From sequence record NZ_CP118990.1: 64,000 nt of DNA; one strand, written 5' to 3'. Numbering within the stretch: the stretch's first letter is position 1; every line of letters begins with the position of its first letter. The notes under the pieces are model-generated. The model did no database searches and had not been told where the DNA came from. It saw only the letters and a list, made by a program, of their open reading frames with translations. Made by a program: the position numbers and the translations under genes. Origin of the DNA: a plasmid. Shown here in pieces: positions 45,301 to 61,946 of the stretch.

Positions 45301-45303
45301 TAG

Positions 45304-46239: not shown

Positions 46240-46287
46240 GAACGGCTTGAAATATTGCCACCAGCGGTTAAGCCTGCTGGTGGCGTA

Positions 46288-46607: not shown

Positions 46608-46608
46608 A

Positions 46609-47644: not shown

Positions 47645-48676
47645 TCAGGCGTCTTTCTTTACCTTGTGGAAGGAGCTGGTGACGTCGTTGCGCCAAGCGT
47701 CATAGGCTAGGTGCAGCACTTCTCCCTCAACCCGGAACCCTTCACCATCAAATTCGATCTTACCAATAGTCACTGGGCTCAGTGCCTTCGGCGGCCAAGT
47801 CTTCACATCCCAAGAGCCGGATACCAAACCGCAGTTATGAGCTTGGTGTCCGCCCATGCGGGGGGAACGAGCGAATTCTAACAAAGCAGCAATGAAAAAG
47901 CCCAGTTCGATCTGACTGACTGACTTGAGGGACATGCGGTGCTCCATCACTGTACCGGCGCAGATCGCCTCGTATTGGTCGATGGGGCGACGTATAGACT
48001 CCCGAGCCTCCCCCTTCTGATCTTTGCGATCTTGGATTTGTGCGTCCAATGCCGCGAGCTGGTCAAACAACACCCTTTTCTCGTCGTTCGGAGCCGTTTT
48101 CAACTGTTTTTTCAGCTCTTTTTGCTTGTCCTTCAATACTCCGACGTCGGCGGAGGCAAGGGTCTGCTCTTCCAAAATGGTTTGGAGCCGGTTTCTTTCC
48201 GACTGATCCAGTGTTTCGAGGAGCTCCGGGGAGCGTTCAAACATGATGGTGCGAGCACCACCACCAAACATGGCCGTTGCATTGGCCGTGATGGGGAAGC
48301 CGTTCCCTATGTTAGCTTTTGATGGAAGCCCCCATATGCCGAAGAGACTCAGCATCGGGTTGCCTTCGCGCAAGTGTCGATCAGAGTTCACCTCGTCGTC
48401 GGCAGGGGCAGAAATATCTCCCACAATGTCTACCCCTTGGGCCAACATGAAATGCTCTGCCAGGTCAAATGGTGGGCGTTGATTGTCTTCATTGAACATC
48501 AACACAACCCGGTGCGCAGCATGGCGCAATGAACCACGGGTAGTCGTTGCAGGCCAATAAGCTGGGGCATCGAACCCGCCATTACGTGGCAGGCGGCCCT
48601 GGGTGTTTTTTATGGTGACGGTCAAGGGCTCAACTGCGGTCAGGTGGCCGTCGAAAACAAAGGTACTTTGAGTCAT
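47645..48676 (-). CDS. csf2: Csf2, type IV Cas7-like backbone protein
   Basis: RAMP-like G-rich region PATTTRGSLRHAAHRVV; size 343 aa; last gene of a csf1-cas6-dinG-csf3-csf2 operon. Confidence 0.6.
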   Translation of the reverse strand: MTQSTFVFDGHLTAVEPLTVTIKNTQGRLPRNGGFDAPAYWPATTTRGSLRHAAHRVVLMFNEDNQRPPFDLAEHFMLAQGVDIVGDISAPADDEVNSDRHLREGNPMLSLFGIWGLPSKANIGNGFPITANATAMFGGGARTIMFERSPELLETLDQSERNRLQTILEEQTLASADVGVLKDKQKELKKQLKTAPNDEKRVLFDQLAALDAQIQDRKDQKGEARESIRRPIDQYEAICAGTVMEHRMSLKSVSQIELGFFIAALLEFARSPRMGGHQAHNCGLVSGSWDVKTWPPKALSPVTIGKIEFDGEGFRVEGEVLHLAYDAWRNDVTSSFHKVKKDA

Positions 48677-48694
48677 GGAAATTCCTTGTTGATG

Positions 48695-49393
48695 TTAAAT
48701 CAGCTGGTGAAGCATTTCAGAACGGACCCTTTGGGGGGCGACAATGGGCATTTTTTCTTTTGAGTAATACGGAGGGAGCAGTGGCGATAGGCCTGGTACC
48801 CCATCGATCCCGGATGATACCGGGAGTGGTCGATTAGCCTTATCCAACAGGATAAGGCTGGCATCTTCCTGCATGGGGGTGATGATCAGATTATCAAAGG
48901 CTCCCATCTGGCAGTTCTGAGCGTCGTAACCTAAGCCCAGAACGAAAAAATCCAGCAACCCCTTTATCAGGTAGGGATTCCCCAATCCATCGAACACTGC
49001 AAAAGGGGCTTGGTAAGCGGGCATCTCCCGCAAGCGTCGTTTGGTCGGTCCTCCCTTGAGCTTGATCTTCACATAGCGTCCTTTGCCGTTGGGGGCAAAC
49101 ATCGCCGGAGATAGTTTCTCGGGAGTATGCCGATCTGCTCTGACGTAGCTGCCGACAGTCAAGCCAACGGCCATCGTGACACCGAATCTCATTGCCGAGG
49201 CATGGAAGACACCAAGTTGGTCGTTATAGAGAAGGTAGTTGCTCATTTCCTGCAAGAGTTCTTCCCTGCTGGCAAGTGGGGAGCGCTGGCTCAGAGCCTC
49301 AAAAACCAAAGCATCAAGAGTTGGGGGGTAGTCAGTTAATACCACCGGGGTCTTTAACGACATGACCAGGCGAAAGGGTTCAAATTCGAACAT
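48695..49393 (-). CDS. csf3: Csf3, type IV Cas5-like protein
   Basis: N-terminal LKTPVVLTDYPPTLDALVFEAL pattern typical of Csf3/Cas5; 232 aa; start overlaps the dinG stop. Confidence 0.55.
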   Translation of the reverse strand: MFEFEPFRLVMSLKTPVVLTDYPPTLDALVFEALSQRSPLASREELLQEMSNYLLYNDQLGVFHASAMRFGVTMAVGLTVGSYVRADRHTPEKLSPAMFAPNGKGRYVKIKLKGGPTKRRLREMPAYQAPFAVFDGLGNPYLIKGLLDFFVLGLGYDAQNCQMGAFDNLIITPMQEDASLILLDKANRPLPVSSGIDGVPGLSPLLPPYYSKEKMPIVAPQRVRSEMLHQLI

Positions 49394-51342
49394 CAGAAGT
49401 AAACCTCCAATGGAGTTGCAGGTGATTGCTCGCCGTCAGTTAACAGCCCTTTGGCCTGCCGGTACTGTTGCAGAAACCGAACGGGAATGATGTTTCGCAG
49501 GATGGCGTGTTTGGACGACAAATCGTGAGACAGTGGGAAACGGGGATCGAGAATATCGACTTCAATGCAATCGTCAGGTGAACGGATCCCGCGGCCAATG
49601 GCTTGTCGCATCAACCGAATAACGGCGTTTTGAGTACGCATATACTCCTGCTTGTAGAGCTGTTTACTCAGGTCAGTCTTCTTGGTCTTCTTGTAGAAAC
49701 TTACCAACGCTTCGACTTCGGAAGTGCGTGGTTGGCCGTAGGCAATTCGAGTGATCATCAGGCGATCGAATCCAACTGAGCCAGCGTCATCGGTGATATT
49801 GAGCCCGGTATGGCCCGCAGCGGTGATCATTACTCCCCGGCCATGATGTCTGCATACCTTCTTGAACTCTTCAATCAATGATTTGAGTGGGGTGCCACGC
49901 TGGTGGACCAGCACCTGCCGATGCTCAATTTGAGCCAAAACTGCGGCCAATTTACGGCTCTCTTCATGTGAAGCTGTCAGCACAACCACCCGTCCGCATC
50001 GGTTGGTGATCTGATGTGCGACTGCTTGCAACCATTTTTCAGAAAGGGCAGGGGCATTCCCCTCAGAGGACGGTCTTGAGTAGATAGCCGGGAACGAGGG
50101 GCCCGCCAGAGTCAGGGTCATGCTCCCATATTTTTTCGGGGAGAAAAGGGCAATGGCGCCGAGCATGGTGTCATCAATACCAAGTTCCATTCGCAACGAA
50201 GTGGTACCATTCACTGGCTCAGGCGTGATACTCAGTGTGCCGGAGGTGAGGAGAACAGACTCAAAAGCTGAGGTCGCGTATTTCCCGAAGAACCGAACAA
50301 ACCACGGGGAGAGTGAGACGATGGCCGGTTCCCGGCGTATCAGTGAAACGCCGATCCCCATGGACGAGGTTTGCATCATCAGGAGCTGCTGCTGCAAAGA
50401 TGTTGAGACATCCTTATCCAGGTTATTCAACCGGCAAATCTTCTCGATCTTTCCAATGGTGGCCCGCGCCAGTTCCGCCAGCTCGGTATCCCAGGCATAT
50501 TGCTGCATCCCCAGCCGCTCTTGGATTGTCTTAATTGAATTAGCAAGAGGGGCTAATTGCCGAGCTGATAGTTGCTCGCCCAACTGGGAGGCGACACGAA
50601 CAAGATTCAGGCGCCGCTGAGTCCATTCTTGCAACCGATTCACCAGGGCATCAGCTTCATCAACAATCAGCACTGTCGGCCGTGACTTATCGGCCAAAAG
50701 CGCATTATTTCGCAGCATGTCTACTGCGATCATGGCATGAGTTGTGACCACGATGTCGCATTTAGATTCAGCCTGTTGCTGTTCGTCAAATGCCTCATTT
50801 TCACACTCAGCCGTCAGGCAAATTTGAGAGGCCAACAAGTCGCAGGGGAGTCCGCCAAACTCATCCTCAAATTCTGCAATCGTCCCTGACCAGTCACGCA
50901 AAGTAGCCACTTCGCGCTCCTCTAGGGCTGACAGAGAGCGGTTGGTGAGGGCAATATTGATCCGCTTTGGCGATACGAAATTGACCCGTCCGAGAAGACG
51001 GCCGATAGACAACGGTCTATGTCCATAATGACGGGCGACTTTGGTCAGCAGCACACTGTCTTTTTCGAGAAGTTGTTGCATCAGTGCGTGGCTGTGTGTT
51101 GCGACGATAACCCGAGGGCGACGTGGGTCGCAGAGTGCAAACTGCATGGCTGGCAAGAGATAGCCCAGCGACTTTCCGAGGCCGGTGTCAGCGTGAAGAA
51201 GCGATATTTTCCCGGTGTCAGCCAGCACTTGCTCAATCATTAGCGCATATTGGGTCTGCTCATCCCGAGCGATGAGGCCGCCAGCGGCCATCAGCTCTCC
51301 GAACTTGGCTGTGTGGATCCCGTCCTCTGGCAAGGGGCTCAT
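49393..51342 (-). CDS. dinG: Csf4/DinG, type IV-A Rad3/XPD-like helicase
   Basis: Helicase motif I HADTGLGKSLGYLLPA; motif II VLIVDEADALV; DinG/Rad3-like insert regions; 649 aa. Confidence 0.75.
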   Translation of the reverse strand: MSPLPEDGIHTAKFGELMAAGGLIARDEQTQYALMIEQVLADTGKISLLHADTGLGKSLGYLLPAMQFALCDPRRPRVIVATHSHALMQQLLEKDSVLLTKVARHYGHRPLSIGRLLGRVNFVSPKRINIALTNRSLSALEEREVATLRDWSGTIAEFEDEFGGLPCDLLASQICLTAECENEAFDEQQQAESKCDIVVTTHAMIAVDMLRNNALLADKSRPTVLIVDEADALVNRLQEWTQRRLNLVRVASQLGEQLSARQLAPLANSIKTIQERLGMQQYAWDTELAELARATIGKIEKICRLNNLDKDVSTSLQQQLLMMQTSSMGIGVSLIRREPAIVSLSPWFVRFFGKYATSAFESVLLTSGTLSITPEPVNGTTSLRMELGIDDTMLGAIALFSPKKYGSMTLTLAGPSFPAIYSRPSSEGNAPALSEKWLQAVAHQITNRCGRVVVLTASHEESRKLAAVLAQIEHRQVLVHQRGTPLKSLIEEFKKVCRHHGRGVMITAAGHTGLNITDDAGSVGFDRLMITRIAYGQPRTSEVEALVSFYKKTKKTDLSKQLYKQEYMRTQNAVIRLMRQAIGRGIRSPDDCIEVDILDPRFPLSHDLSSKHAILRNIIPVRFLQQYRQAKGLLTDGEQSPATPLEVYF

Positions 51343-51911
51343 AACACCTCCAGGTTCGACAACTGGCCGTAGCCAAATACCCGCTTACGGCCAATGCCAT
51401 AAACAACAGCCTGCTCGGCCAGCGCAACATCCTTGATCTCAGCAACGACACTGACCGGGTTGCACTGGAGGGTGAAGCTCTGTTTTTTCTTGAGGTAGCG
51501 CTCCAGGTAGGGGCTGTTGGCTGAGTGGCTCTGGAGCGAGAGTCCTGCCCCTTCGCACTGCCTGGCTAGAACATCAGGCAAGATGGCCATCGGCAGATTC
51601 ATCGACCGTTTTTTGGTGGTGCCTGGGATCGGATGCTTGATTGGGAAGCAGAAGTTGAGGTTGAACATGACTGCATCTGCCACGTTCAGTTCAAGTTGTA
51701 CGGCTTGTTCGCCAGCTAGGCCAAGTTGCGTTGCCGATCGCAAGTAGATAACGGTTGTGTTGGGCTCATGAGGGTGAGCAATCCGCCGCCAGCTATAGGG
51801 GACTTTACAGCGCAATGTCTCCTGTACCAAATAATCAAGACGCTGGTGGACCAGATACGGAAGAGACGGGTCAGTTTCACGCAGTTTGAGGGTGTTTTCA
51901 TAGTAAATCAT
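51339..51911 (-). CDS. cas6: Cas6-family crRNA endoribonuclease (Csf5; Cas6e-like)
   Basis: C-terminal glycine-rich loop GIGRKRVFGYGQLS characteristic of Cas6; 190 aa; CRISPR repeats nearby are I-E-like. Confidence 0.6.
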   Translation of the reverse strand: MIYYENTLKLRETDPSLPYLVHQRLDYLVQETLRCKVPYSWRRIAHPHEPNTTVIYLRSATQLGLAGEQAVQLELNVADAVMFNLNFCFPIKHPIPGTTKKRSMNLPMAILPDVLARQCEGAGLSLQSHSANSPYLERYLKKKQSFTLQCNPVSVVAEIKDVALAEQAVVYGIGRKRVFGYGQLSNLEVL

Positions 51912-52744
51912 TGGAGCTTGTCCGCGATGTGAATCAGCTTGAGGCGCTGGTGGGGGTCCGCCGGTAAAGTGCGAAATATCGTGCCGAACGATGGTTTTTT
52001 GCTGATCTGTTCACTGGCCTGCTGGGGGGTAATGCGTCCGTTCGAGAGGCCAACGACTAACTTATTGAAGGCGTTGCGTTCCTGACTTGTTAGTGTGTTG
52101 AGCCCCCCTGATAGCCGCATGGCCGCATCCAGATTAACCGTGCATTCGACTCGGGTAACTGAATCCATACCGGCGTCACTACAGCAGTAGAGCGCCTGCG
52201 GTGACAGAGATATGGTCAACCCTCGCATAAGCGCCGCGGTTTTACGTCCGAAAGATTCGATGTATAGCAGAGGGAATTTTGCATTCTCTGCGATCCATGG
52301 CAGGTGACCACCAACGGTAATCTTCACCACATCGACGTGCTCTAAAAATGATGCAGGGAACTTGTCATACACCCCTGGTGGGGCTAGGAGCGTTGAACGC
52401 TGAGGCTTACCTGGGACATCTGCAATTTCGTGCACCCAACCGACACCACTCATCATTCCAAAGCGCTGGCCCACCTTCTTGTCGCTTTTCCCGGCAGTTC
52501 GCTCATTACCCATGATGTTGGGGTCGGTCACAAACATGGCCTGGCAAGGAGCACAGTGGTTGAACGGCGTTTTATAGCTATCCAGACCTTGATAACCCAC
52601 ACGGTCAAACGAGCTTGCAGGGCGCTTGCAGCAAGAACATGCCGCACCAGTCTTTACAGCTTCTCCCAAGGCTGGAGCCAAAATATGGGTGAGGTTGGCA
52701 TAAAGAAGATCAATTGGATGTTGCACGTCACCTCCGAGAAACAT
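51908..52744 (-). CDS. csf1: Csf1, type IV large-subunit-like protein with zinc finger
   Basis: Cys cluster CSCCKRP...CAPC near the N-terminus; 278 aa; first gene of the operon. Confidence 0.55.
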   Translation of the reverse strand: MFLGGDVQHPIDLLYANLTHILAPALGEAVKTGAACSCCKRPASSFDRVGYQGLDSYKTPFNHCAPCQAMFVTDPNIMGNERTAGKSDKKVGQRFGMMSGVGWVHEIADVPGKPQRSTLLAPPGVYDKFPASFLEHVDVVKITVGGHLPWIAENAKFPLLYIESFGRKTAALMRGLTISLSPQALYCCSDAGMDSVTRVECTVNLDAAMRLSGGLNTLTSQERNAFNKLVVGLSNGRITPQQASEQISKKPSFGTIFRTLPADPHQRLKLIHIADKLQ

Positions 52745-52865
52745 TCTGAAACAGTTTCACATAAGATAATAGATTTCTTTTTTTTGTAAAGAGGCAGGTC
52801 CTTGATAATCGACCGTTTTTAGTGGCCTGGTAGAAACGGGTGCTGTATAAGCTAAAACCTCGGTA

Positions 52866-52989
52866 TGCCGCCCTTTGGCGGGGGTTAGCGGTTTGAGCCA
52901 GCGCAAAAACAAGCCAGAGCAGAGCCATGCTGGAGTGCCTCCCAGTGGCGGGGGTTAACAGATGAATGGCAACCTCTGGGGTTGAACGG
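52866..52989 (+). CRISPR. Vestigial CRISPR mini-array: 2-3 degenerate repeats adjacent to the cas operon start
   Basis: tgccgccctttggcgggggttagcgg (52866), tgcctcccagtggcgggggttaacag (52936), ctctggggttgaacgg (52971) resemble the main-array repeat ..CCCCCGCAGGCGGGGGTTAACGG. Confidence 0.4.
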
Positions 52990-53088
52990 AGGTAAAGCTC
53001 CGGGGGCCATAGCCCCTATGTTGGGAGCGCCATGTTCAGTGACATTTTACCAACGGAACAAAGTTCTGGTGTTATTTCAGGGGGAAGT

Positions 53089-53751
53089 ATGAAGGGTAAT
53101 ATAATTTCATGGAAAGATGAAAAAGGCTTCGGCTTTATAAAAAATGATGAGAATGGCGAACATATATTTTTTCATATATCGAGCGTTATAAAAGGGACGA
53201 GGCAGCCTATTGTTGGTGATGCAGTTACATTTGATGTAGGGGTTGATTCCAGCAACCGAAAAAAAGCAAAAGATATTTTTATTGAAGGGGTGTCATTTAC
53301 CAATATCCCAAGGCGAGTATTTACGGAAAAGGTTAAGCGCGACCGTTTCGATTATTATTGTTACGTCGCGATAGTGTTATCAGTGGCAATAACACTCGCT
53401 GTGTATATTAAAATGGGGCAGCCTCGACTGGCATTATTTCCCGCCGCCGTTGCTATAATGCTGTTTTTGTATATCTCCGTCCGTACTAAAAAACCTGCAA
53501 ATGACATATTCTCATGCGGGAAATGCTCATCAGTGGTTAGACATGACGCAAGAACCATTCGGGCATGGAATAAGGGTGCGTGTAAATTATATTGCAGAAC
53601 CTGCAATCAGAACTGGCATCGTGAAAAGCCACAAAGGGATAGCACTAAAAAATATAATCGCCCTCAGAAGTCTGGATGTCTAGGGGTATTATTATTTATA
53701 ACATTCGTGCCGGTATTTTTAATTTCAAGCATCATCACCTTACTGGTGTAG
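53089..53751 (+). CDS. Cold-shock-domain protein fused to a membrane (DUF1294-like) region with a CxxC...CxxC zinc-ribbon insert
   Basis: N-terminal CSD KGFGFI...GEHIFFHISS; two or more TM helices; CGKC...CRTC. Confidence 0.55.
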   Translation: MKGNIISWKDEKGFGFIKNDENGEHIFFHISSVIKGTRQPIVGDAVTFDVGVDSSNRKKAKDIFIEGVSFTNIPRRVFTEKVKRDRFDYYCYVAIVLSVAITLAVYIKMGQPRLALFPAAVAIMLFLYISVRTKKPANDIFSCGKCSSVVRHDARTIRAWNKGACKLYCRTCNQNWHREKPQRDSTKKYNRPQKSGCLGVLLFITFVPVFLISSIITLLV

Positions 53752-53793
53752 AAAGAAATGTTGAAGCCTTGTTGCCTGGACTATTAACTGAAT

Positions 53794-53827
53794 GAGCCTC
53801 ATCATAATCATGGGTGAGGCTTTTTTA
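53794..53827 (+). terminator. Rho-independent terminator
   Basis: gcctca...tgaggc hairpin followed by T6. Confidence 0.55.
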
Positions 53828-53907
53828 ATGGCCCGATAAAGGGCGAAAAGTGTCGCTCTCAAATTGCCACGCACTGACCGCGTTTCCCAAGTCGATGACA
53901 CTGAATA

Positions 53908-54040
53908 GTGTACAAACTTTATTATGCAAGTGACTGATCTGTAGTGTCCGTTGTGTACAAACTTTACTGTCCGAGTCACCGCTACGCCGTGTTTGCTGCG
54001 TACAAACTTCATTGTCACTGTACTGCTTGCGCAGCCTAAC
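53908..54040. repeat. Three direct repeats with 45-bp period carrying G(T/C)GTACAAACTT
   Basis: gtgtacaaactttat at 53908, gtgtacaaactttac at 53953, gcgtacaaacttcat at 53998. Confidence 0.7.
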
Positions 54041-54222
54041 GGCGCCTGCGGCCACAGTACAGACAACCCCGCATTGCGTACTTCTCCATGCCCTCCTTCA
54101 CACACAGAGGCTCAAGCGTGTCTCTGTGTGTCTCTACTTATTAAAATGATTCTTTGAAAAAGTAGTGTTTATAAAATAGGATAGTTGGCAGGAAAGTCCT
54201 TCATTTTTCACGGAGAGAACGC

Positions 54223-54753
54223 ATGAGAGAGGTGCACTTCATTAGCCAGGTCGAGGCCGAAAAACTGGCGCCGGTTGCCGGTGCGGCGATGATCTCGATC
54301 ACCGACCCGGACAAACCGGAGGCGGCCCTGGGAGATTGGCAACTCTTGTATCGGGACAGCTTTTACGATGGTGGCTACAGTGAGGACACCATCCGTACCA
54401 TGAAAGGGTCTTTTCGGATGAGCTACGCATCCTACATTGACTCCCATCAGGCGAAGAACCTATCCAACTACATCGATGAGCTGGTGCAGAGCGGCATCAG
54501 CCAGATCTTTGTTCACTGCTACTACGGGGAATCCCGAAGTGGCGCGATTGCTTTGTATCTGTGCAACAAACATGGATTCACCTCGAACAAGCCCATCACC
54601 AAGCCTAACAGGACGGTCTACGATCTCCTCTGCTCCCCTTTGAAATATGAAGCACTGATACAGAGTTACGAAACACAAGATGCTGCGCCTACCGAGAGTA
54701 TCTACACCAAGATATGGGATTTATTGCTCGTGGCTATCGGTGTTAGGAGGTAA
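54223..54753 (+). CDS. CX5R protein-tyrosine/dual-specificity phosphatase-like protein
   Basis: Active-site signature VHCYYGESRSG (HCxxGxxRS); GGAGAG RBS. Confidence 0.5.
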   Translation: MREVHFISQVEAEKLAPVAGAAMISITDPDKPEAALGDWQLLYRDSFYDGGYSEDTIRTMKGSFRMSYASYIDSHQAKNLSNYIDELVQSGISQIFVHCYYGESRSGAIALYLCNKHGFTSNKPITKPNRTVYDLLCSPLKYEALIQSYETQDAAPTESIYTKIWDLLLVAIGVRR

Positions 54754-54755
54754 CT

Positions 54756-55760
54756 TTGCACCAACGGAACAACCGCGACACCACTGAACTTTCACACGCG
54801 AAAGTCATTGTCTTGCCAGAACAAACCTCAGGTGGAGGCCTCCCGCAAGTCACCGGGGGGCTCAGAAGCGCACAAGATAATCCGGCAGTTGCATACCTGA
54901 TCAGCCTTGGCTCCAGGCGCAGTCGGCAAACCATGGGCTCATTTCTCAGCATTGTTGCTCGGATGATCGGGTACCAAAACCTGCGTGATTGCGCGTGGGA
55001 GTCGATGCGGCGGCATCATGTCCAAGCTGTGATCCAAATGCTCAGTGACTCTGACCGAGCGCCAGCTACGATCAATACCTACCTGGCAGCGCTGAAAGGA
55101 GTTGCCCTGGAAGCGTGGACAATGAAGCTGATTGATACCGACAGTTACCAGCATATCAAGCAGGTGCGTTCGGTGAGAGGCTCTCGTTTACCCAACGGGC
55201 GGGCCCTCGAAAAGCACGAGGTCAGAGCCCTTTATTTCACATGTGAAAACGATCGGAGCTCCAAAGGGCTGCGTGACGCAGCCATCCTTGCTGTTTTAGT
55301 CGGGTGCGGACTTCGGCGCTCAGAGGTTGTCGCCCTCGATATGGAATGTGTCATCACCAGGGATCAGGCACTTCGTGTGCTCGGTAAGGGCAATAAAGAA
55401 CGCATCGCCTATGTGCCTGACGGGGCATGGCAGCGGCTTATGCGGTGGGTGGAGGAGGTTCGTGGTGATCAGCCGGGATCGCTGTTTCAGCGGATCAGGC
55501 GGTTTGATGATGTCACCGCCGACAGAATGACTGACCAGGCTATCTATCACATTCTTGAAACGAGAAGGATTGAGGCGGGGCTGGAAAAATTCGCTCCTCA
55601 TGATCTCCGCAGAACCTTTGCATCGGCCATGCTGGATAATGGCGAGGACATCATCACGGTCAAGGATGCGATGGGCCATGCCAGTGTCACGACCACGCAG
55701 AAGTATGATCGTCGGGGAGATGAGCGATTGAAACAGGCCAGTCGGCGACTCGATTTTTGA
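54756..55760 (+). CDS. Tyrosine recombinase/integrase (XerD/phage-integrase family)
   Basis: C-terminal catalytic motifs HDLRRTFAS...GHASVTTTQKYDRR (R..HxxR..Y); TTG start with AGGAGG RBS 5 nt upstream; overlaps the upstream stop; contains one ATTTCACATGTGAAAA palindrome. Confidence 0.75.
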   Translation: MHQRNNRDTTELSHAKVIVLPEQTSGGGLPQVTGGLRSAQDNPAVAYLISLGSRRSRQTMGSFLSIVARMIGYQNLRDCAWESMRRHHVQAVIQMLSDSDRAPATINTYLAALKGVALEAWTMKLIDTDSYQHIKQVRSVRGSRLPNGRALEKHEVRALYFTCENDRSSKGLRDAAILAVLVGCGLRRSEVVALDMECVITRDQALRVLGKGNKERIAYVPDGAWQRLMRWVEEVRGDQPGSLFQRIRRFDDVTADRMTDQAIYHILETRRIEAGLEKFAPHDLRRTFASAMLDNGEDIITVKDAMGHASVTTTQKYDRRGDERLKQASRRLDF

Positions 55761-55888
55761 GTCGGAAGACCAATGTTAATCAGTTGCGCACTCAGAATTT
55801 AAGAGGTAAATTTCAGCCACCAATCCTCAAGTGTGCGAACATCGCTGAACGTGACCTAATCTTGATGGTAATTGTTGACTTGGTAAGT

Positions 55889-56584
55889 ATCGCCCCCCCG
55901 CAGGTGGGGGTTAACGGGCGTGTAAAGCGTCCAACGTGACTTACAGAAAATCGCCCCCCCGCAGGTGGGGGTTAACGGAGTGGATGCATTTGCTGACTTC
56001 CACCGATGAATCGTCCCCCGTGCCTGGGGGTTAACGGTACTCGGCCTGGCACAACATGGACCTCACCCGATTTCTCCCCCGCAGCTGGGGGTTAACGCCG
56101 CGAGGGGAGCTGTTGCTATAGCGGGAATGAATCCCCCACCGCAGGCGGGGGTTAACGGCGTCAGCACATCACACAGCTATTGAGCACCAGATCGATCCCC
56201 CGCAGGCGGGGGTTAACGGTTTTCGATGATGTCGGTGGCGTTTGCCATCATATCGCCCCCCGCAGGCGGGGGTTAACGGACGCTGATAACGCATATCGAC
56301 GACGGATTTGAATCACCCCCCCGCAGGCGGGGGTTAACGGCCCGCGGGATAGAGAAGTGGTGCCATCAGCGCATCTCTCCCCCGAGCCTGGGGGTTAACG
56401 GTGCCCTTTTTGTGCACAAACAAAAAAATCAAAATCCATCCCCCTGTTACGGGGGTTAACGAAGCGGGACGTCGTGGTGCTGTGCTGCGGCTGCATCTCC
56501 CCCCAGCAGGCGGGGGTTAACGTTAGCTTCACACCAGGCCTTGATAGCATCGCCGATCTATCCCTCGCGACTGGGGGTTATCGG
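55889..56584 (+). CRISPR. CRISPR array, 12 repeats of 28-29 bp with 11 spacers of ~32 nt; consensus ATCGCCCCCCGCAGGCGGGGGTTAACGG; repeats unusually heterogeneous
   Basis: Period ~61 bp; conserved 5' ATC + C-run and 3' GGGGGTTAACGG; loop and stem flank vary between units; terminal unit degenerate (ttatcgg); geometry and stem-loop resemble type I-E/IV-A3 repeats; AT-rich leader-like 128 bp upstream. Confidence 0.8.
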
Positions 56585-56772
56585 GAGGAAGCATGGCACA
56601 ACAGAACGTTTTCCTTCTTCGATTGAGGGTTATGCGCGAAATGGCCGCCGACACCGACTCGGTGATCTCTGCCGTCACGGCCGAGCTGCCAGTCGGTTTC
56701 CCTGAGCACATTAGCAAGGCCATTTTTTCTGGGTTGTCGGCTCAAGCAGCCAAGCTTCTGAGAGGGTGAGAA

Positions 56773-57270
56773 ATGGCTGAAATGAGCAATTTTGGGGAAA
56801 GCTTCAAGCTTTATTCCGACGGGCAACGAGATCCTGTCAAGCGCACAGGCCTGAACGTCCAGTACACAGAGACTCGGGCCAACTACCCGACAATCAGCAT
56901 CGAGATCGCTCCCATCCGGGCGGCAGGAGCAAAAGCAGACTGGGAGCAGAAGATCACAGTACAACTGACCAGGGCAGAGCTGACCGCGTTCTGCGGTGTG
57001 ATGTTTGGGCTCAGGAAGGATGCCACAGGGTCATACCATGGTGACGCCAACAACAAGAGCTTCGCGACATACTGCAACGGCAAGTCCGGCGTCGCCATCC
57101 TTCTCATGGCACGAGGGAACCAGTACCAGCACCTCATTACACCCGATGACCGAATGGAGCTAGCTGTATTCGCGATAAGGAGGTTGGCTGAGGCATGGAA
57201 GGTCACCCCTTCTGATGCGATTGCGATGCTCCGTCAAGGGGCGTGGATGAGCAAGAATCAGGTAAATTAG
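56773..57270 (+). CDS. Hypothetical protein (165 aa)
   Basis: GAGGGTGAGAA RBS; followed by terminator. Confidence 0.45.
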   Translation: MAEMSNFGESFKLYSDGQRDPVKRTGLNVQYTETRANYPTISIEIAPIRAAGAKADWEQKITVQLTRAELTAFCGVMFGLRKDATGSYHGDANNKSFATYCNGKSGVAILLMARGNQYQHLITPDDRMELAVFAIRRLAEAWKVTPSDAIAMLRQGAWMSKNQVN

Positions 57271-57524: not shown

Positions 57525-58070
57525 ATGCGCTATCACTCACCTCTGCACGACCCGCTGACTCAAGATGAACTCAATGCACTTAGAGCCTCACTCTCTGCAA
57601 AAGAGTTCCAGCATGACTTATTCCGAGCATTCCTGTTCGTATGCGAGACAGGGTTGAGTTGGGAGGATGTTTACCTCCTAAAGTGGACGCAAATCGATAG
57701 GGAAAACCACCTGCTGGTTCACGACTATGAACGAATCAATGGACATCAAACCCAACGCCTTTCGCAGTTCGCATTGAATGTTTTGCCCGAGCAGAGCAGC
57801 AGCAAGGTCTTTCCTGATCTACATTTCGAGCTCATTCAAGACCGATATGGGGAATGGTGCTCGTCTGACCTATGGGTCTGGGGGAAGAGATCAAATATCA
57901 AGCGCGGGTTTTGTCTTGAGGCTGCTGGGGCCACCTTCGTTACCAAAATGACAGCTCAACACGTTGATGAGCATGAGCTCGCAAAAATGCTGAACATTAC
58001 CGAGCTCGACTTACGTTGGATTTACCCAATACGTTCATTTAACCCGATTGACCTAATGTTCCTCTCCTAA
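57525..58070 (+). CDS. Short tyrosine-recombinase-catalytic-domain-like protein, probably degenerate
   Basis: FLFVCETGLSWEDVYLLKWTQID resembles the first conserved box of tyrosine recombinases but with His in place of the box-I Arg; only 181 aa; GGAGAG RBS. Confidence 0.3.
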   Translation: MRYHSPLHDPLTQDELNALRASLSAKEFQHDLFRAFLFVCETGLSWEDVYLLKWTQIDRENHLLVHDYERINGHQTQRLSQFALNVLPEQSSSKVFPDLHFELIQDRYGEWCSSDLWVWGKRSNIKRGFCLEAAGATFVTKMTAQHVDEHELAKMLNITELDLRWIYPIRSFNPIDLMFLS

Positions 58071-58107
58071 ACGTTGTCCTGAGCGAACAAGGAAACCTGA
58101 TCGCATC

Positions 58108-59220
58108 ATGCCGCTAAAGTGCTTGCACCACCACACCACCATCTTCGCCTTTGATTTCGATGCAGCAGGTTGGGAGAAACTGAAAGCCAGCAACCGAGCA
58201 GATGCCGGCCTCATAATGACATGCTGCCAGGCCCGAGCGGTCCCGAAGGTATCCAAGCTCGGCACCCGGTTCTTTGCACATCACAAGAGTGGCGAATGTA
58301 CCAGCACACCGGAGACAGCGGAGCACCTATGGGCCAAGACCATCGTCTGTCAGGCTGCCCGAGCGGCAGGGTGGACAGCCGATACGGAGGTAAGGGGCCA
58401 AACTCCGGCCGGTGAAGACTGGGTGGCCGATGTGCTATCCACCAAAGGCAGCGCTAAGGTCGCCATCGAGATCCAGTGGTCACGCCAAGGCACCGAAGAG
58501 ACCCAGCGCCGTCAGCGTCGCTATGCCGACTCTGGAGTGCGAGCATTATGGCTACTGCGTCACCCTGACCTGCTGGTGGAGCGGGGCACGCCATCGTTCT
58601 TGTTGGATGTCCGAGCGAGTGAGTCAGCAGCCTTCGTGCGACTCCCATCAAGCCAATTCGATCCGCGCTGGGTCACCAACCGCAACAAGAGCGAAGCGGA
58701 ATATTGGCAGCAAACCATCGCGCTGGAGACGTTCGTCCGTGGAGCCCTGACCGGCTCATTAAAGTTCGCCCCGGCGATTGACCAGCCCATACCGGTGACC
58801 ATCAGTGCCACAAAGATCCGGTGCTGGCGCTGTAAGCGTGAGACCTGGACGGTACAAGGGCTTACCCTGGAGGTCAGTACGCGGTTCGCGGGTCACCCAG
58901 ACCTGCACACGAGCCTTGAAGAGCTCGATAGCGGGGAGGAGACTGCACCGTGGCTGGCTAACTTGTTCCCGGCCGCACTGTTGAAGCAACACGGGATAGG
59001 CGTGATCAAGCCGCGCTTTAGCCGCACAGCAGGATGCAGCTATCTATCGAACGGCTGTACACACTGCGACGCCCTCCAGGGTCGCCACTTTGACCACGAC
59101 GATTACCAGGAAGCGACCGACGTCTGCCAGTATGAAGTCACCCTGAGTAGTGAGTTGCTAGAGCAACTGGCTACCGTGGGCAACGATATTGCCTATCGCT
59201 GGTGGTTTGCAGAGAGGTAA
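58108..59220 (+). CDS. CoiA-like (competence protein CoiA family) putative nuclease
   Basis: CoiA-like architecture with CxxC..HFAH...ES.EH...K region and AIEIQWS core. Confidence 0.5.
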   Translation: MPLKCLHHHTTIFAFDFDAAGWEKLKASNRADAGLIMTCCQARAVPKVSKLGTRFFAHHKSGECTSTPETAEHLWAKTIVCQAARAAGWTADTEVRGQTPAGEDWVADVLSTKGSAKVAIEIQWSRQGTEETQRRQRRYADSGVRALWLLRHPDLLVERGTPSFLLDVRASESAAFVRLPSSQFDPRWVTNRNKSEAEYWQQTIALETFVRGALTGSLKFAPAIDQPIPVTISATKIRCWRCKRETWTVQGLTLEVSTRFAGHPDLHTSLEELDSGEETAPWLANLFPAALLKQHGIGVIKPRFSRTAGCSYLSNGCTHCDALQGRHFDHDDYQEATDVCQYEVTLSSELLEQLATVGNDIAYRWWFAER

Positions 59221-59329
59221 ACGTGGCCGGTTTCTTCATAAATTAGACCATCATGCAGCGAGGGGTAGAAAGCCCCACACCAACCCCCGAGGCCTACCTT
59301 TTACCCCGGCGCCGCTCCACTGAGCGCGT

Positions 59330-59366
59330 CTCTTCTTTCTCTCTCTTTTTCTCTCTTTCTCAATCT
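59330..59366. repeat. CT-rich low-complexity tract
   Basis: tctcttctttctctctctttttctctctttctc. Confidence 0.7.
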
Positions 59367-59582
59367 AATCTCCCGCGAGCGCGGGCCTAGCACAGGGGCT
59401 GAGCTCGTTCGGGGGTAAGGCTCACCGGGTCCAACATTGTCACGATAAAACATCGGGCTCACCCTCCCCCGACGCCGCGCAGCGGCGGCGATCATCTCTT
59501 ATACCCCTCGTTGCATGATGGTCTAATATTGCCTATTCTCTAACCAATATTCTATCGGTACAAACCCCAGGTAAGGACCTCC

Positions 59583-60464
59583 ATGCAGACTAACTTCATC
59601 TCCGAACAGTACACAGCCATCACCCGTGACCTCGATCGCCTCGCAACTCTCATCCGGCGCCTGCCCCATCGCGACGCCCGTGTCGCGGCCATCACACCCA
59701 CGGCCAAAGGCTCCGAAAGCGAGCCTACAACCAACATTGTTGTCCTGGAACAAACCGGGAGCGATGCCCTGGCGCTCGCCGCCGACTGCTACCGGGATCT
59801 CCACATCATCCCCCAGCTCTCCCAGAAGTCGGCCCGCCGAACCGTCGGCGTATTGTGGCTCTCCCCTTCCCAGAGCGGCGCGGCCGCCACTGACGAGCTC
59901 CGGCAGCTGGTGGACCGCATCAACACCGCCAAGGCCGGTATCGAGACGTTCATCGTCTCCAACTACGGCACCCGCCAGGAGCGTTTTGAGGCACTCCGGG
60001 CCGAATGCCCCGGCGTGATGACCCTGCACCTGTACCGGCAGATCCGGTGCTATGCCGAGGGGGACGTGGATTCTATCCGGTTCACCTGGCAGCAGAAGGA
60101 CTCGCTCAAACGGCCCGACAAAGATGAGCTGATGCGCCGGATCCGGGTTGAACTGGAGAAAGCAGGGCCAGATTTTCGGCCGCAGCTGGAGGAGCTGCTC
60201 GACAAGATTTCCGGCACCCCCGAGGCAGCGCTGCGCGAGCGCCGGGAGGTAAAGGTGCAGCCGGTGGCAAACATCATGGCCGCGGGGGCACTGAGAACGG
60301 TGACGGCACCGATGCCTCTGATCCTGCTCCAGGATGCTGATGCCAAGATCAAGATGCTCAAGTCGTTTGACCCGAAGGCAGGGCGCAAAACGCGGAACGA
60401 CCGGGTGGAATCCCGTGTTATCGGGACATTTTGCGGGGTCGCCATCGAGGCATTTCCGTTGTGA
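59583..60464 (+). CDS. Hypothetical protein (293 aa), GC-rich
   Basis: AAGGACCTCC RBS; no motif recognised. Confidence 0.45.
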   Translation: MQTNFISEQYTAITRDLDRLATLIRRLPHRDARVAAITPTAKGSESEPTTNIVVLEQTGSDALALAADCYRDLHIIPQLSQKSARRTVGVLWLSPSQSGAAATDELRQLVDRINTAKAGIETFIVSNYGTRQERFEALRAECPGVMTLHLYRQIRCYAEGDVDSIRFTWQQKDSLKRPDKDELMRRIRVELEKAGPDFRPQLEELLDKISGTPEAALRERREVKVQPVANIMAAGALRTVTAPMPLILLQDADAKIKMLKSFDPKAGRKTRNDRVESRVIGTFCGVAIEAFPL

Positions 60465-60602
60465 TGACATGACGGGATAAGCAAGGTGGGCCGTTGAAAA
60501 CGGCCATATCCGGGGTTTGGGGAGCAATGGAACCAAAAACCAACGTAAGCTCTGAATCCCACCGTAAAGGGGCTTTCCGATCTCCAGCTCACCCGCCAGG
60601 CA

Positions 60603-61004: not shown

Positions 61005-61069
61005 TTTCTCCTTGATTCCGTACTTTGGTACGGAGTTTAGAATAGCACCTAGGCAATCAGGCTCAGGAG

Positions 61070-61426: not shown

Positions 61427-61438
61427 AGGAGATTAACC

Positions 61439-61714: not shown

Positions 61715-61721
61715 GGTCACG

Positions 61722-61934: not shown

Positions 61935-61946
61935 CGTTTAGGGGGA

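What the first reader, a model, noticed from the sequence alone, without database searches (positions are those of the whole stretch)
55889..56584. CRISPR array with I-E-like geometry but unusually heterogeneous repeats that keep a C-run/G-run stem while the loops vary
Twelve 28-29 bp repeats and ~32-nt spacers give a 61-bp period, as in type I-E and IV-A3 arrays. The 5' ATC + C5-7 and the 3' GGGGGTTAACGG are conserved. The loop and inner stem differ among units (cgcaggcg, cgtgcctg, cgcagctg, cgagcctg, ctgttacg, cagcaggcg, tcgcgactg). Genuine arrays usually have near-identical repeats. The stem is kept despite sequence drift, which suggests selection only for Cas6 hairpin recognition and the 3' handle. 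Alternatively the array is old and decaying. Either way, crRNA processing here must tolerate loop variation.
Basis: seen in the sequence. Interest (0 to 1): 0.65.

Follow-up and report, generated by a model that had tools for sequence, protein, structure and literature searches.

The report
Plasmid type IV-A3 CRISPR array, drifted repeats
This is a genuine CRISPR array of a plasmid-borne type IV-A3-like system in Aeromonas; its repeats vary much more than usual, but only at positions the crRNA machinery should not need, and that looks like an extreme case of a pattern already seen in Klebsiella type IV-A3 arrays.

Summary
There are 12 repeats (11 distinct) and 11 unrelated spacers of 30-32 nt, with a 59-61 bp period, on the + strand at 55889-56584.

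The array belongs to a type IV-A3-like cas operon (csf1, cas6e-like, dinG, csf3, csf2) at 47645-52744 on the minus strand. The host is an IncA/C-like conjugative Aeromonas plasmid.

Repeat variation is about 125 changes per 1000 nt. The published I-E average for internal repeats is about 5, and one Klebsiella IV-A3 array gives about 45. The variation is sharply partitioned. The 5' flank and loop are 33-40% non-consensus. The G-run shows 0 changes in 60 positions and the TTAACG handle 1 in 72 (Fisher p = 3e-17). This argues for purifying selection on crRNA processing and loading, not decay.

Sister plasmids and metagenome contigs carry the same variant repeats with the same trailer-end spacers. 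They differ by gain at the leader end, internal deletions and chimeric repeats. One spacer matches the traA pilin region of rival Aeromonas plasmids, next to an AAG motif.

Best reading: a long-lived, recombining plasmid-versus-plasmid array in which unconstrained repeat positions have drifted. It is a new member of a known kind, of moderate-to-low interest. No crRNA data exist. Drift alone may not explain how fast the loops change.

The parts
55761..55888 (+). Leader of the array, running from the stop codon of the tyrosine recombinase gene to the first repeat. It contains the motif AACATCGCTGAACGTG, which is conserved in the leaders of related Aeromonas-type arrays.
   Evidence: it is identical or near-identical in sister plasmids and in L061; the motif is conserved in L039, L040, L042 and pAeme3 although those arrays sit at different places. 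The consensus scan found no sigma-70 promoter on the + strand.
55889..56584 (+). CRISPR array: 12 repeats and 11 spacers, read on the + strand.
   Evidence: Three things set the orientation. The repeat resembles the I-E and Klebsiella IV-A3 repeat as written from the leader. Sister plasmids have an extra spacer next to the leader. The last repeat is degenerate.
55889..55917 (+). R1, ATCGCCCCCCCGCAGGTGGGGGTTAACGG, the leader-proximal repeat. It is identical to R2.
   Evidence: hairpin -13.2 kcal/mol.
55950..55978 (+). R2, ATCGCCCCCCCGCAGGTGGGGGTTAACGG.
56010..56037 (+). R3, ATCGTCCCCCGTGCCTGGGGGTTAACGG. Its loop type is the same as in the leader-proximal repeats of L039 and L041.
56070..56098 (+). 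R4, ATTTCTCCCCCGCAGCTGGGGGTTAACGC. The last base is C.
   Evidence: In L001 and L039 the 3' half stays with the downstream spacer, while the 5' half differs along with the upstream spacer.
56131..56158 (+). R5, ATCCCCCACCGCAGGCGGGGGTTAACGG.
   Evidence: It is identical in L001 and L061.
56191..56219 (+). R6, ATCGATCCCCCGCAGGCGGGGGTTAACGG.
56220..56251 (+). Spacer 6, TTTTCGATGATGTCGGTGGCGTTTGCCATCAT. It is the only window spacer with a database target.
   Evidence: It matches 30 of 32 bases in the traA / 'pili assembly chaperone' gene of six large Aeromonas plasmids, with AAG immediately 5' of the protospacer.
56252..56279 (+). R7, ATCGCCCCCCGCAGGCGGGGGTTAACGG, the medoid of the array.
56312..56340 (+). 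R8, ATCACCCCCCCGCAGGCGGGGGTTAACGG. Spacer 7 and R8 are absent from L001, L002 and L061.
56373..56401 (+). R9, ATCTCTCCCCCGAGCCTGGGGGTTAACGG.
56434..56462 (+). R10, ATCCATCCCCCTGTTACGGGGGTTAACGA. It has a 5-bp stem and a 6-nt loop, and its last base is A.
56495..56523 (+). R11, ATCTCCCCCCAGCAGGCGGGGGTTAACGT. The last base is T.
   Evidence: In L039 the T travels with spacer 11 after a deletion.
56556..56584 (+). R12, ATCTATCCCTCGCGACTGGGGGTTATCGG, the terminal repeat. Its TTATCGG handle is the Klebsiella IV-A3 consensus.
51908..52744 (-). csf1 (cas8-like), 278 aa.
   Evidence: E = 4.7e-57 to PDB chain 8RC2_G, 'CRISPR type AFERR-associated protein Csf1'.
51339..51911 (-). cas6e-like (csf5), 190 aa, the presumed pre-crRNA endonuclease.
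   Evidence: PF08798, E = 3.8e-4, below the curated cut-off. (29% identity, E = 6e-20 to the Klebsiella IV-A3 Cas6). (invariant H22 and G172-x-G174...G180-x-G182). Only 5 homologues were found in 5.8 billion protein clusters.
49393..51342 (-). dinG (csf4) helicase, 649 aa.
   Evidence: TIGR03117 cas_csf4 E = 3.3e-30; DEAD and Helicase_C_2 domains.
48695..49393 (-). csf3 (cas5), 232 aa.
   Evidence: TIGR03116, E = 3.4e-8, over the whole length.
47645..48676 (-). csf2 (cas7), 343 aa.
   Evidence: TIGR03115, E = 9.4e-10; about 50% identity over 97% of its length to Csf2 of more than 400 Klebsiella IV-A3 plasmids, and 73.5% to A. media pAeme3.
52866..52989 (+). A degenerate second mini-array in the csf1 upstream region: two repeat-like units and one partial unit.
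   Evidence: At the same place L040 has 4 units and L042 has a bona fide array. Function is unknown. Its 'spacer' has no above-chance match in the window.

Best explanation
The locus is the working CRISPR array of a type IV-A3-like CRISPR-Cas system. The system is carried in an accessory island of an IncA/C-like (MOBH/MPF_F) conjugative Aeromonas plasmid.

**Inferred mechanism**, by homology with Klebsiella IV-A3 and type I-E:
- The + strand is transcribed from the leader or by read-through from the recombinase gene.
- Each repeat folds into a C5/G5 hairpin.
- The Cas6e-like protein cuts at the 3' base of that hairpin.
- The resulting crRNAs carry a UUAACG 5' handle, then one variable base, then the spacer, and end in the next repeat's hairpin.
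- Csf1/Csf2/Csf3 assemble on the crRNA.
- Together with DinG they repress or exclude rival plasmids that carry matching protospacers.
- The system has no cas1/cas2 of its own, so new spacers enter at the leader end through a host adaptation module acting in trans.

**Proposed origin of the repeat heterogeneity.** Only the first repeat has to serve spacer integration. Older repeats need only the stem and the handle. Their 5' flank, C-run length and loop are therefore free to change. Trailer-end units persist for a long time. Deletions between repeats, and recombination between the arrays of related plasmids, shuffle units and create chimeric repeats.

The array is therefore a mosaic record of repeat variants, not a decaying relic.
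For: **Shown here**
- The array, its periodicity and its unrelated spacers are real.
- The cas operon is intact, has the IV-A3 gene order and is homologous to IV-A3. Csf1 matches 8RC2_G at E = 4.7e-57. Csf2 is 50% identical to Klebsiella Csf2. The order csf1, cas6, dinG, csf3, csf2 is the same as in a Klebsiella IV-A3 plasmid.
- The repeat is a close variant of the Klebsiella IV-A3 repeat GTATTCCCCCCGTGTGCGGGGGTTATCGG.
- Variation is partitioned. The 5' flank has 29 of 72 non-consensus positions, the loop 16 of 48 and the closing pair 7 of 24. The C-run has 3 of 60, the G-run 0 of 60 and TTAACG 1 of 72, that one being in the terminal repeat, whose handle is never used. Fisher p = 2.6e-17.
- All 12 repeats fold into the hairpin, at -7.1 to -13.2 kcal/mol. 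Across the family 93.7% of stem cells pair, against 70% or less in slid registers.
- Divergence from the first repeat tends to grow along the array. Spearman rho is 0.80 (p = 1e-4) in L001 and 0.63 (p = 0.002) in the Klebsiella array. In the window it is 0.56 (p = 0.056), short of significance.
- L001 and L002 share window spacers 4-6 and 8-11, each with its own variant repeat. They carry one extra spacer at the leader and lack S7/R8.
- L061 equals the window array without S7/R8.
- L039 shows deletions that leave chimeric repeats: the 5' half comes from one unit and the 3' half plus last base from another.
- Spacer 6 matches traA of rival Aeromonas plasmids at 30 of 32 bases with a 5' AAG. Two spacers of the sister array match small Aeromonas plasmids.
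- No window spacer matches the window itself.

**From the literature**
- Klebsiella IV-A3 crRNAs are cut at the hairpin base and have a 6-nt handle (10.1101/2023.06.23.546257).
- In that system Cas1/2e act in trans and incorporate the G of the PAM, and interference works by transcriptional repression (same preprint).
- The 6-nt handle plus a PAM-derived base fits the invariant TTAACG plus one variable base seen here.
Against: - There are no RNA data, so transcription and processing of this array are not shown. The simple scan found no sigma-70 promoter in the leader.
- The PAM is supported by only 1 of 3 protospacers. The other two have GCA and TGG.
- Ten of the 11 window spacers have no match in the plasmid or phage collections.
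- No compensatory covariation supports the stem.
- The sister plasmids keep, and even extend, the array without any csf2 (one search finds csf2 in only two Aeromonas plasmids). Persistence of the array therefore does not require the cis operon.
- Simple in-place drift is hard to square with the tempo. Free positions differ about 33-40% within the array, as much as 4-fold sites differ between the window and L040 lineages (34-43%). Yet arrays of plasmids only 0.6% apart already share just half their spacers.
- The first repeat itself differs (GCAGGT versus GTGCCC loop region) between the window and L039 despite that 0.6% divergence. This forces recombination, or some faster process, into the explanation.
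- No host adaptation module has been identified.
Confidence: 0.7

Rival explanations
1. The loop and 5'-flank variability is not passive drift. One possibility is a repeat-specific mutational process, such as hairpin-templated strand switching or slippage during gap-filling after spacer integration. Another is selection: dissimilar repeats recombine less, which would protect hard-to-replace spacers on a plasmid that lacks its own cas1/cas2.
For: - Free positions inside the array are as diverged (33-40%) as 4-fold sites between lineages whose Cas6 is 85% identical (34-43%). Yet arrays turn over within 0.6% divergence.
- The first repeat changed at 4-5 positions between plasmids that are 0.6% apart.
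- One L040 unit has its 5' half replaced by the reverse complement of its 3' half plus the start of the spacer, giving a perfect 19-bp palindrome. That is a template-switch signature.
- C-run length varies from 5 to 8, and some L040 repeats have collapsed loops.
- The Klebsiella array has 7 tetraloop variants on an otherwise invariant repeat.
- Published work proposes that repeat mutations lower the rate of recombinational spacer deletion (PMC12839519).
Against: - Orthologous units in window, L001 and L061 have identical variant repeats, so no ongoing hypermutation is visible.
- The loop variants are not simple inversions of each other, as checked by inspection.
- Recombination between diverged arrays explains the mosaic pattern without a new process.
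- Deletions between variant repeats still occur (S7/R8; S6-S10 in L039), so any protection is at best partial.
Confidence: 0.15
2. The array is a non-functional fossil that is simply eroding. It is no longer transcribed into working crRNAs.
For: - Eleven of the 12 repeats are distinct.
- Only one of the 11 spacers has a known target, and that one has 2 mismatches.
- No consensus promoter was found.
- The array lies 3.1 kb from the operon and on the opposite strand.
- Sister plasmids carry the array without cas genes.
- A clearly degenerate mini-array lies nearby.
Against: - Erosion would hit all positions. Here the G-run and the TTAACG of the 11 handle-giving repeats show 0 changes in 121 positions, against 33-40% in the loop and flank.
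- All five cas ORFs are intact.
- Relatives show leader-end gain with exact copies of the first repeat.
- The leader motif is conserved across lineages.
Confidence: 0.12
3. It is not CRISPR at all. It is a degenerate tandem repeat or a cluster of REP-like hairpins, or the heterogeneity is an assembly or homopolymer artefact.
For: - C and G homopolymers are error-prone in long reads. L039 and L041 visibly suffer from this.
- Unrelated hairpin tandem repeats ending in GGGGGTTAACGG exist in metagenomes.
Against: - The spacers are unrelated to each other.
- Tandem Repeats Finder finds nothing.
- A spacer matches a foreign plasmid gene next to AAG.
- A IV-A3 cas operon lies alongside.
- Identical variant repeats occur in three finished plasmids and one metagenome contig.
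Confidence: 0.02

Closest known systems
Type IV-A3 CRISPR-Cas of Klebsiella pneumoniae IncHI1B/IncFIB plasmids (Newire et al. 2020, PMC7434947; Benz et al. preprint 10.1101/2023.06.23.546257; PDB 8RC2)
   Same: - The gene order is the same: csf1, cas6e-like, dinG, csf3, csf2.
- Csf1 matches 8RC2_G at E = 4.7e-57. Csf2 is about 50% identical.
- There are no adaptation genes nearby.
- It sits on a large MOBH/MPF_F conjugative plasmid.
- The repeat is 28-29 nt with a C-run, tetraloop and G-run hairpin and a TTAxCG handle, and the period is 61 bp.
- Repeats vary in the loop within one array.
- A spacer targets a conjugation gene of another plasmid next to AAG.
   Different: - Cas6 is only 29% identical.
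- The handle is TTAACG rather than TTATCG, except in the terminal repeat.
- The array is not directly downstream of csf2. It lies 3.1 kb upstream of csf1 on the other strand, behind a tyrosine recombinase gene. Its leader does not align with the 65-bp Klebsiella leader.
- Repeat mutation density is about 2.8 times higher, and it extends to the 5' flank.
- A second, degenerate mini-array sits at the csf1 promoter region.
- The host genus is Aeromonas.
Type I-E CRISPR arrays (E. coli / Thermus Cas6e substrates)
   Same: - 29-nt repeat, 32-nt spacer, 61-bp unit.
- Hairpin followed by a short handle.
- Cas6e-type endonuclease with an N-terminal catalytic histidine and a C-terminal GhGxxxxxGhG loop (PMC5965381).
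- A last repeat base that behaves as if derived from the PAM.
   Different: - No cse1, cse2, cas3, cas1 or cas2 lie next to the array.
- The effector genes are csf-type with DinG.
- The repeat sequence differs.
- No Rfam CRISPR-DR family matches.
Aeromonas media pAeme3 type IV-A3-like locus (NZ_CP038446.1)
   Same: - It is the closest annotated plasmid relative of the cas operon, with Csf2 73.5% identical and the same gene order.
- The handle is TTAACG followed by a variable last base.
- The leader motif is the same.
   Different: - Its array is convergent and lies just downstream of csf2.
- Its repeats are nearly homogeneous (28 per 1000 nt).
- Its stem is longer, CTCTCCCG/CGGGAGGG, and in a different register.
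- That plasmid is itself a target of window spacer 6.

Membership tests
CRISPR array (generic) | Three or more direct repeats of 23-55 nt at regular spacing | tested here: met
   12 repeats of 28-29 nt with a 59-61 bp period.
CRISPR array (generic) | Spacers of uniform length that are unrelated to each other | tested here: met
   Spacers are 30-32 nt. Their pairwise similarity equals that of shuffled spacers, and Tandem Repeats Finder is silent.
CRISPR array (generic) | Spacers match foreign mobile elements next to a consistent motif | tested here: inconclusive
   One of 11 window spacers matches, at 30 of 32 bases, traA of Aeromonas plasmids with AAG. Two sister-array spacers match small plasmids with GCA and TGG. 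There are no phage hits.
CRISPR array (generic) | Polarised turnover: gain at the leader end and a shared trailer end among relatives | tested here: met
   Comparison of window, L001/L002, L061 and L039/L041.
CRISPR array (generic) | Transcription and processing into crRNAs | not testable with these tools
   No RNA data are available. No consensus promoter was found in the leader.
Type IV-A3 CRISPR-Cas | csf1, cas6e-like, dinG, csf3, csf2 operon in that order | tested here: met
   ORFs of 278, 190, 649, 232 and 343 aa on the minus strand. Family hits. The order is identical in Klebsiella L044.
Type IV-A3 CRISPR-Cas | Sequence homology of the effector subunits to characterised IV-A3 | tested here: met
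   Csf1 matches 8RC2_G at E = 4.7e-57. Csf2 is about 50% identical over 97% of its length. Cas6 is 29% identical, E = 6e-20. All NCBIfam scores are below the curated cut-offs, so it is a divergent member.
Type IV-A3 CRISPR-Cas | No own adaptation module (cas1/cas2) and no cas3 | tested here: inconclusive
   None was found among the ORFs checked between 42.7 and 64 kb. Positions 30000-47269 match known pAsa4-like backbone. Positions 1-30000 were not annotated gene by gene.
Type IV-A3 CRISPR-Cas | I-E-like 29-nt repeat related to GTATTCCCCCCGTGTGCGGGGGTTATCGG | tested here: met
   Alignment A1.
Type IV-A3 CRISPR-Cas | Array directly downstream of csf2 with the conserved 65-bp leader | tested here: not met
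   Only a solitary repeat-like hairpin follows csf2. The array is divergent, 3.1 kb beyond csf1. Its leader does not align with the Klebsiella leader.
Type IV-A3 CRISPR-Cas | Carried by a large conjugative plasmid and targeting other plasmids | tested here: met
   The nearest relatives are MOBH/MPF_F conjugative Aeromonas plasmids. The spacer targets are plasmids.
Type I-E CRISPR-Cas | cse1, cse2, cas7e, cas5e, cas6e with cas3 and cas1-cas2 adjacent | tested here: not met
   The neighbouring genes are csf-type plus DinG.
Cas6e (CasE/Cse3) endoribonuclease, for the 190-aa protein | Pfam PF08798 above threshold, or a Cas6e fold | tested here: inconclusive
   PF08798 scores 21.2 bits against a cut-off of 25. 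There is no PDB sequence hit, even with a profile. The AlphaFold model is unusable, with pLDDT 36.8. The catalytic-position His22 and the G-rich loop are present and invariant in 5 homologues.

The most novel reading that the evidence does not exclude
Repeat loops and 5' flanks in type IV-A3-type arrays may change by a dedicated fast process. Candidates are hairpin-templated strand switching or slippage when the repeat is duplicated by a foreign Cas1-Cas2, or gene conversion between arrays. The resulting dissimilarity may then be kept by selection because it slows recombinational loss of spacers that the plasmid cannot easily re-acquire. The array would then be an example of adaptive repeat diversification, not drift.
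Probability: 0.15. Interest if true: 0.6.

Novelty: new member of a known kind. Interest (0 to 1): 0.33.

Why it matters
The locus extends the clinically studied Klebsiella type IV-A3 plasmid-warfare system to IncA/C-like Aeromonas plasmids, which are important carriers of resistance genes in water and wastewater.

It also offers a natural mutational scan of the repeat. Twelve units in one array, and about 37 distinct variants across the family, indicate which repeat positions the Cas6e-like nuclease and the Csf complex can do without (5' flank, loop, C-run length). They also indicate which cannot change (G-run and the TTAACG handle). That is directly useful for designing minimal or recombination-proof synthetic IV-A3 arrays.

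The mismatch between fast array turnover and deep repeat divergence gives a concrete system for testing whether repeat polymorphism stabilises spacers.

Tried and rejected
- **Species-representative genomes.** A scan with CCCCCNNNNNNGGGGGTTAACG gave 33 single chance hits and no array.
- **Rfam.** At E <= 1 there was no CRISPR-DR or other family over 52700-56700.
- **Covariation.** There are no pairs with changes on both sides, and the shuffles are equal to the observed value. The stem rests on conservation only.
- **Cas6 against PDB.** The single sequence and a 5-sequence profile both gave nothing meaningful. An AlphaFold2 model from a 6-sequence alignment had pLDDT 36.8, so no fold search was run.
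- **Protospacer searches.** All window and sister spacers against phages gave no match. Thirty-two further spacers from L040, pAeme3, L039, L042 and the mini-arrays against plasmids returned only their own array.
- **Self-regulation idea for the mini-array 'spacer'.** Its best match in the window is 20 of 32 bases, against 19-22 for shuffles. Rejected for lack of evidence.
- **Self-targeting or reciprocal targeting within the window.** None was found.
- **Loop variants as simple inversions of each other.** Checked by eye; they are not.
- **Promoter in the leader.** The consensus scan found none on the + strand.
- **Literature on type IV-A in Aeromonas.** No relevant paper was found.
- **Metagenome scan.** The two-repeat pattern gave one true relative (L061) and one further lineage (L052/L057). 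The remaining hits are unrelated hairpin tandem repeats.
Full report
**1. What is there**

Reading 55600-56900, the repeat finder and a parse anchored on the conserved 3' block all show 12 repeats of 28-29 nt on the + strand. They run from 55889 to 56584 and are separated by 11 spacers of 30-32 nt, with a 59-61 bp period. R1 and R2 are identical (ATCGCCCCCCCGCAGGTGGGGGTTAACGG). The other ten all differ from each other.

The spacers are no more alike than shuffled versions of themselves, and Tandem Repeats Finder finds nothing. The 'degenerate tandem repeat' alternative therefore fails.

**2. Context**

- Directly upstream, on the same strand, a XerC/D-like tyrosine recombinase gene (54756-55760) ends 128 bp before R1.
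- Further left, on the minus strand, lie five intact genes: csf1, cas6e-like, dinG, csf3 and csf2.
  - csf1 is 278 aa and matches PDB 8RC2_G 'Csf1' at E = 4.7e-57.
  - The Cas6e-like protein is 190 aa.
  - DinG/Csf4 is 649 aa.
  - Csf3/Cas5 is 232 aa.
  - Csf2/Cas7 is 343 aa.
- A Klebsiella IV-A3 plasmid fetched for comparison has the same order.
- Csf2 is about 50% identical to that of more than 400 Klebsiella IV-A3 plasmids and 73.5% identical to that of Aeromonas media pAeme3.
- Cas6 is 29% identical to the Klebsiella IV-A3 Cas6. It keeps an invariant His22 and a C-terminal G-I-G-RKRVF-G-Y-G loop. These are the Cas6 hallmarks summarised in PMC5965381.
- The Cas6 family is rare, with five homologues in 5.8 billion protein clusters.
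- The surrounding DNA is backbone of pAsa4-like (IncA/C-like, MOBH) Aeromonas plasmids up to about 47269, where the cas island begins.
- No cas1, cas2 or cas3 was seen among the neighbours checked.

**3. Is the heterogeneity unusual?**

Yes, in degree. The table gives edit distance to the array medoid for internal repeats.

| Array | Edits per 1000 nt |
|---|---|
| Window | 125 |
| Sister plasmid L001 | 98 |
| Klebsiella IV-A3 (L044) | 45 |
| pAeme3 | 28 |

A survey of 4418 I-E arrays reports 5.3 per 1000 nt for internal repeats and 28.6 for terminal repeats (PMC12839519).

The kind of variation is not new, however. The Klebsiella array has 12 distinct repeats among 21, with seven different tetraloops on an otherwise constant repeat. 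Newire et al. already drew loop 'wobbles' in the IV-A3 repeat logo. The window array extends this to the 5' flank and to the length of the C-run.

**4. Where the variation falls**

The table counts non-consensus residues among the 12 repeats.

| Region | Non-consensus / positions |
|---|---|
| 5' flank | 29 / 72 |
| Loop | 16 / 48 |
| Closing pair (G-C versus G-U) | 7 / 24 |
| C-run | 3 / 60 |
| G-run | 0 / 60 |
| TTAACG | 1 / 72 |
| Last base | 3 / 12 |

- Free regions against constrained regions give Fisher p = 2.6e-17.
- The single TTAACG change is in the terminal repeat, whose handle is never part of a crRNA.
- Every repeat folds into the hairpin, at -7.1 to -13.2 kcal/mol.
- Across 37 distinct repeats of the family the six stem pairs are 93.7% paired, against 70% or less when the register is slid. 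No pair has changes on both sides. The stem is supported by conservation, not by covariation.
- Small-RNA sequencing of Klebsiella IV-A3 showed cleavage at the base of the hairpin and a six-nucleotide 5' handle. It also showed Cas1/2e-mediated acquisition that brings in the G of the AAG motif.
- That matches the pattern here of six invariant bases (TTAACG) followed by one variable base.

**5. History of the array**

Close relatives were found in the following places:
- three finished Aeromonas plasmids (L001, L002, AP022282);
- four contigs reached through Cas6 homologues (L039-L042);
- one metagenome contig (L061).

What they show:
- L001 and L002 have 17 repeats. Their trailer half carries window spacers 4-6 and 8-11, each with exactly the window's variant repeat.
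- Their leader half is nine near-identical copies of the R1 type.
- They have one spacer more than the window next to the leader, and they lack S7/R8.
- L061 is the window array minus S7/R8.
- L039 and L041 share spacers 2, 4, 5 and 11. They show deletions whose junction repeats are chimeras. For example, the 5' half of R6 is joined to the TTAACGT end of R11, which is followed by spacer 11.
- Divergence from the first repeat tends to increase along the array. Rho is 0.56 (p = 0.056) in the window, 0.80 (p = 1e-4) in L001 and 0.63 (p = 0.002) in the Klebsiella array.
- The variants are therefore inherited, mostly old, and reshuffled by leader-end gain and by deletion between repeats.

The terminal repeats of both the window array and the L040 array carry TTATCG. 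That is the Klebsiella consensus, not their own lineage's TTAACG or TTGTCG. It suggests the arrays preserve an ancestral repeat state.

**6. A tension**

- At 4-fold degenerate sites the window and L039 operons differ by 0.6%. The window and L040 differ by 34-43%.
- Free repeat positions within the window array differ by 33-40%, as much as in the deep split.
- Yet arrays of plasmids 0.6% apart already share only about half their spacers. Even their first repeats differ (GCAGGT versus GTGCCC loop region).
- Spacer 2 is flanked by an R1-type repeat upstream in the window but by a GTGCC-type repeat in L039.
- Plain in-place drift cannot produce this. Recombination between arrays of diverged plasmids is the simplest addition.
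- A repeat-specific mutational process remains possible. One L040 unit has been converted into a perfect 19-bp palindrome, a template-switch signature. C-run lengths vary and some loops have collapsed.

**7. Function**

- Window spacer 6 matches, at 30 of 32 bases, the traA / pilin-region gene of six large Aeromonas plasmids, with AAG immediately 5' of the protospacer. One of these plasmids is pAeme3, which has its own related IV-A3 system.
- Two sister-array spacers match small Aeromonas plasmids, at 32 of 32 and 28 of 29 aligned bases, but next to GCA and TGG.
- Nothing matches phages.
- Spacers from the other relatives have no database match.
- No spacer matches the window itself.
- This fits the plasmid-versus-plasmid role shown for Klebsiella IV-A3, which acts by transcriptional repression with DinG. 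Here that role is inferred.

**8. Differences from Klebsiella IV-A3**

- The array is not downstream of csf2. Only a solitary repeat-like hairpin is there (47633-47605, minus strand).
- The array lies 3.1 kb beyond csf1, on the other strand, behind three genes: a cold-shock-domain protein, a phosphatase-like protein and the recombinase.
- Its leader does not align with the Klebsiella leader. It does share a motif (AACATCGCTGAACGTG) with the leaders of L039, L040, L042 and pAeme3, even though those arrays sit at three different positions relative to the operon.
- A degenerate mini-array occupies the csf1 upstream region (52866-52989). In L042 the real array is at that spot.

**9. Verdict**

This is a genuine array, probably functional, of a divergent type IV-A3-like system on an Aeromonas conjugative plasmid. 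Its repeat heterogeneity is real and extreme in degree. It is confined to positions that the processing and loading machinery should not need. It is shared with relatives and continuous with what is known for IV-A3. I rate it a new member of a known kind, of moderate-to-low interest. One open point deserves a test: whether drift plus recombination fully accounts for the speed of loop change.

Noticed in passing
window 52866-52989 (+): There is a degenerate mini-array in the intergenic region upstream of csf1. It consists of TATGCCGCCCTTTGGCGGGGGTTAGCGG, then 44 nt, then TGCCTCCCAGTGGCGGGGGTTAACAG, then a partial CCTCTGGGGTTGAACGG. L040 has four units at the same place, and its last 'spacer' is homologous to the window's. 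L042 has a bona fide array there, divergent from csf1. The 'spacer' has no above-chance match in the window (20 of 32; shuffles give 19-22).
   Followed up: partly
window 47633-47605 (-): A solitary repeat-like hairpin, CTTCCGCCCAATAGTTGGCGGTTTACGCC, lies just after the csf2 stop codon. pAeme3 has CATCCACCCGTGCGCGGGTGGTTATCGG at the same place, and the Klebsiella IV-A3 array starts there. It could be a relic of the ancestral array position, or a Cas6 or terminator site for the cas mRNA.
   Followed up: no
L040 about 4233-4300 (minus strand of the locus), in its array: In one unit the 5' half of the repeat is replaced by the reverse complement of its 3' half plus the first bases of the next spacer: CCAATCCCCGACAACCCCC-GTGGGC-GTGGGGGTTGTCGGGGATTGG. 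This gives a perfect 19-bp palindrome, which is a template-switch signature. Three other L040 repeats have collapsed loops and are 24-25 nt long.
   Followed up: no
window spacers 1 and 6 (55918-55949, 56220-56251) versus L040; L040 spacers at 4422 and 3810; L044 spacers 1 and 2: The same protospacers recur as slightly different spacers.
- Window S1 and S6 appear in the L040 array with 1-2 mismatches, in reversed order and flanked by different repeats.
- L040 holds two variants of one spacer (27 of 30 identical).
- The Klebsiella array begins with two variants of one spacer.
This suggests repeated acquisition from hot-spot sites of variant target plasmids.
   Followed up: partly
L001/L002 (NZ_AP022242, NZ_AP019196) and NZ_AP022282: The sister plasmids carry a longer version of this array (17 repeats) but no csf2. 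tblastn finds csf2 in only two Aeromonas plasmids, both of the pAeme3 type. Copies of IS66-family ISAs21 and Mu-like genes lie where the operon would be. These are orphan arrays that may have kept acquiring spacers, since they carry one leader-end spacer the window lacks.
   Followed up: partly
window 56556-56584 and the terminal repeat of L040: Both terminal repeats have a TTATCG handle, the Klebsiella IV-A3 consensus. The younger repeats of the two lineages have TTAACG and TTGTCG. Two L040 repeats have TTACCG, a possible intermediate. The arrays seem to record the evolution of the handle.
   Followed up: no
window 53032-53751 (+): A 239-aa protein lies between the cas operon and the array. 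It has an N-terminal cold-shock domain (PF00313, E = 2.5e-10) and a weak match to the retron Se72 effector family (NF038236, E = 6.5e-6, below the cut-off). L039, L040 and L041 have a comparable gene at this place; in L040 it carries a CSD Pfam hit. It may be a defence or regulatory gene.
   Followed up: no
window 54223-55760 (+): A 176-aa protein with a weak dual-specificity-phosphatase match, followed by a XerC/D-like tyrosine recombinase, sits immediately upstream of the leader. L040 and the sister plasmids have the same pair; L039 and L041 have a comparable pair of genes there that carry no family annotation. In A. salmonicida plasmids (NZ_CP049831, NZ_CP050188) the match to the recombinase gene stops at its stop codon, and no leader or array match follows.
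   Followed up: partly
L049, L053, L054, L056, L058, L059, L060, L062 (metagenome contigs): These contigs carry unrelated tandem hairpin repeats with periods of 29-32 and 60-64 nt that end in GGGGGTTAACGG. Examples are GGAGCATCCCCCATAGAGGGGGTTAACGG and GGGACGGAGTCCCCTGTGGGGGTTAACGG. Their period is too short for CRISPR, and their nature is unknown.
   Followed up: no
window 58000-64000: G+C content rises from about 0.53 to 0.59-0.66. This stretch holds a CoiA-like nuclease-domain protein (58108-59220), a Tus/Ter replication-terminus protein (59583-60464) and a Tn3-family transposase (61947-63986, minus strand). It is probably the edge of a transposon. A NERD-domain protein lies at 43766-44437.
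   Followed up: no
window 56593-56769 (+): A small ORF with a GGAGGA ribosome-binding site starts 9 bp after the last repeat. It is annotated as a 58-aa hypothetical protein in the sister plasmids. Read-through of the array would run into it.
   Followed up: no
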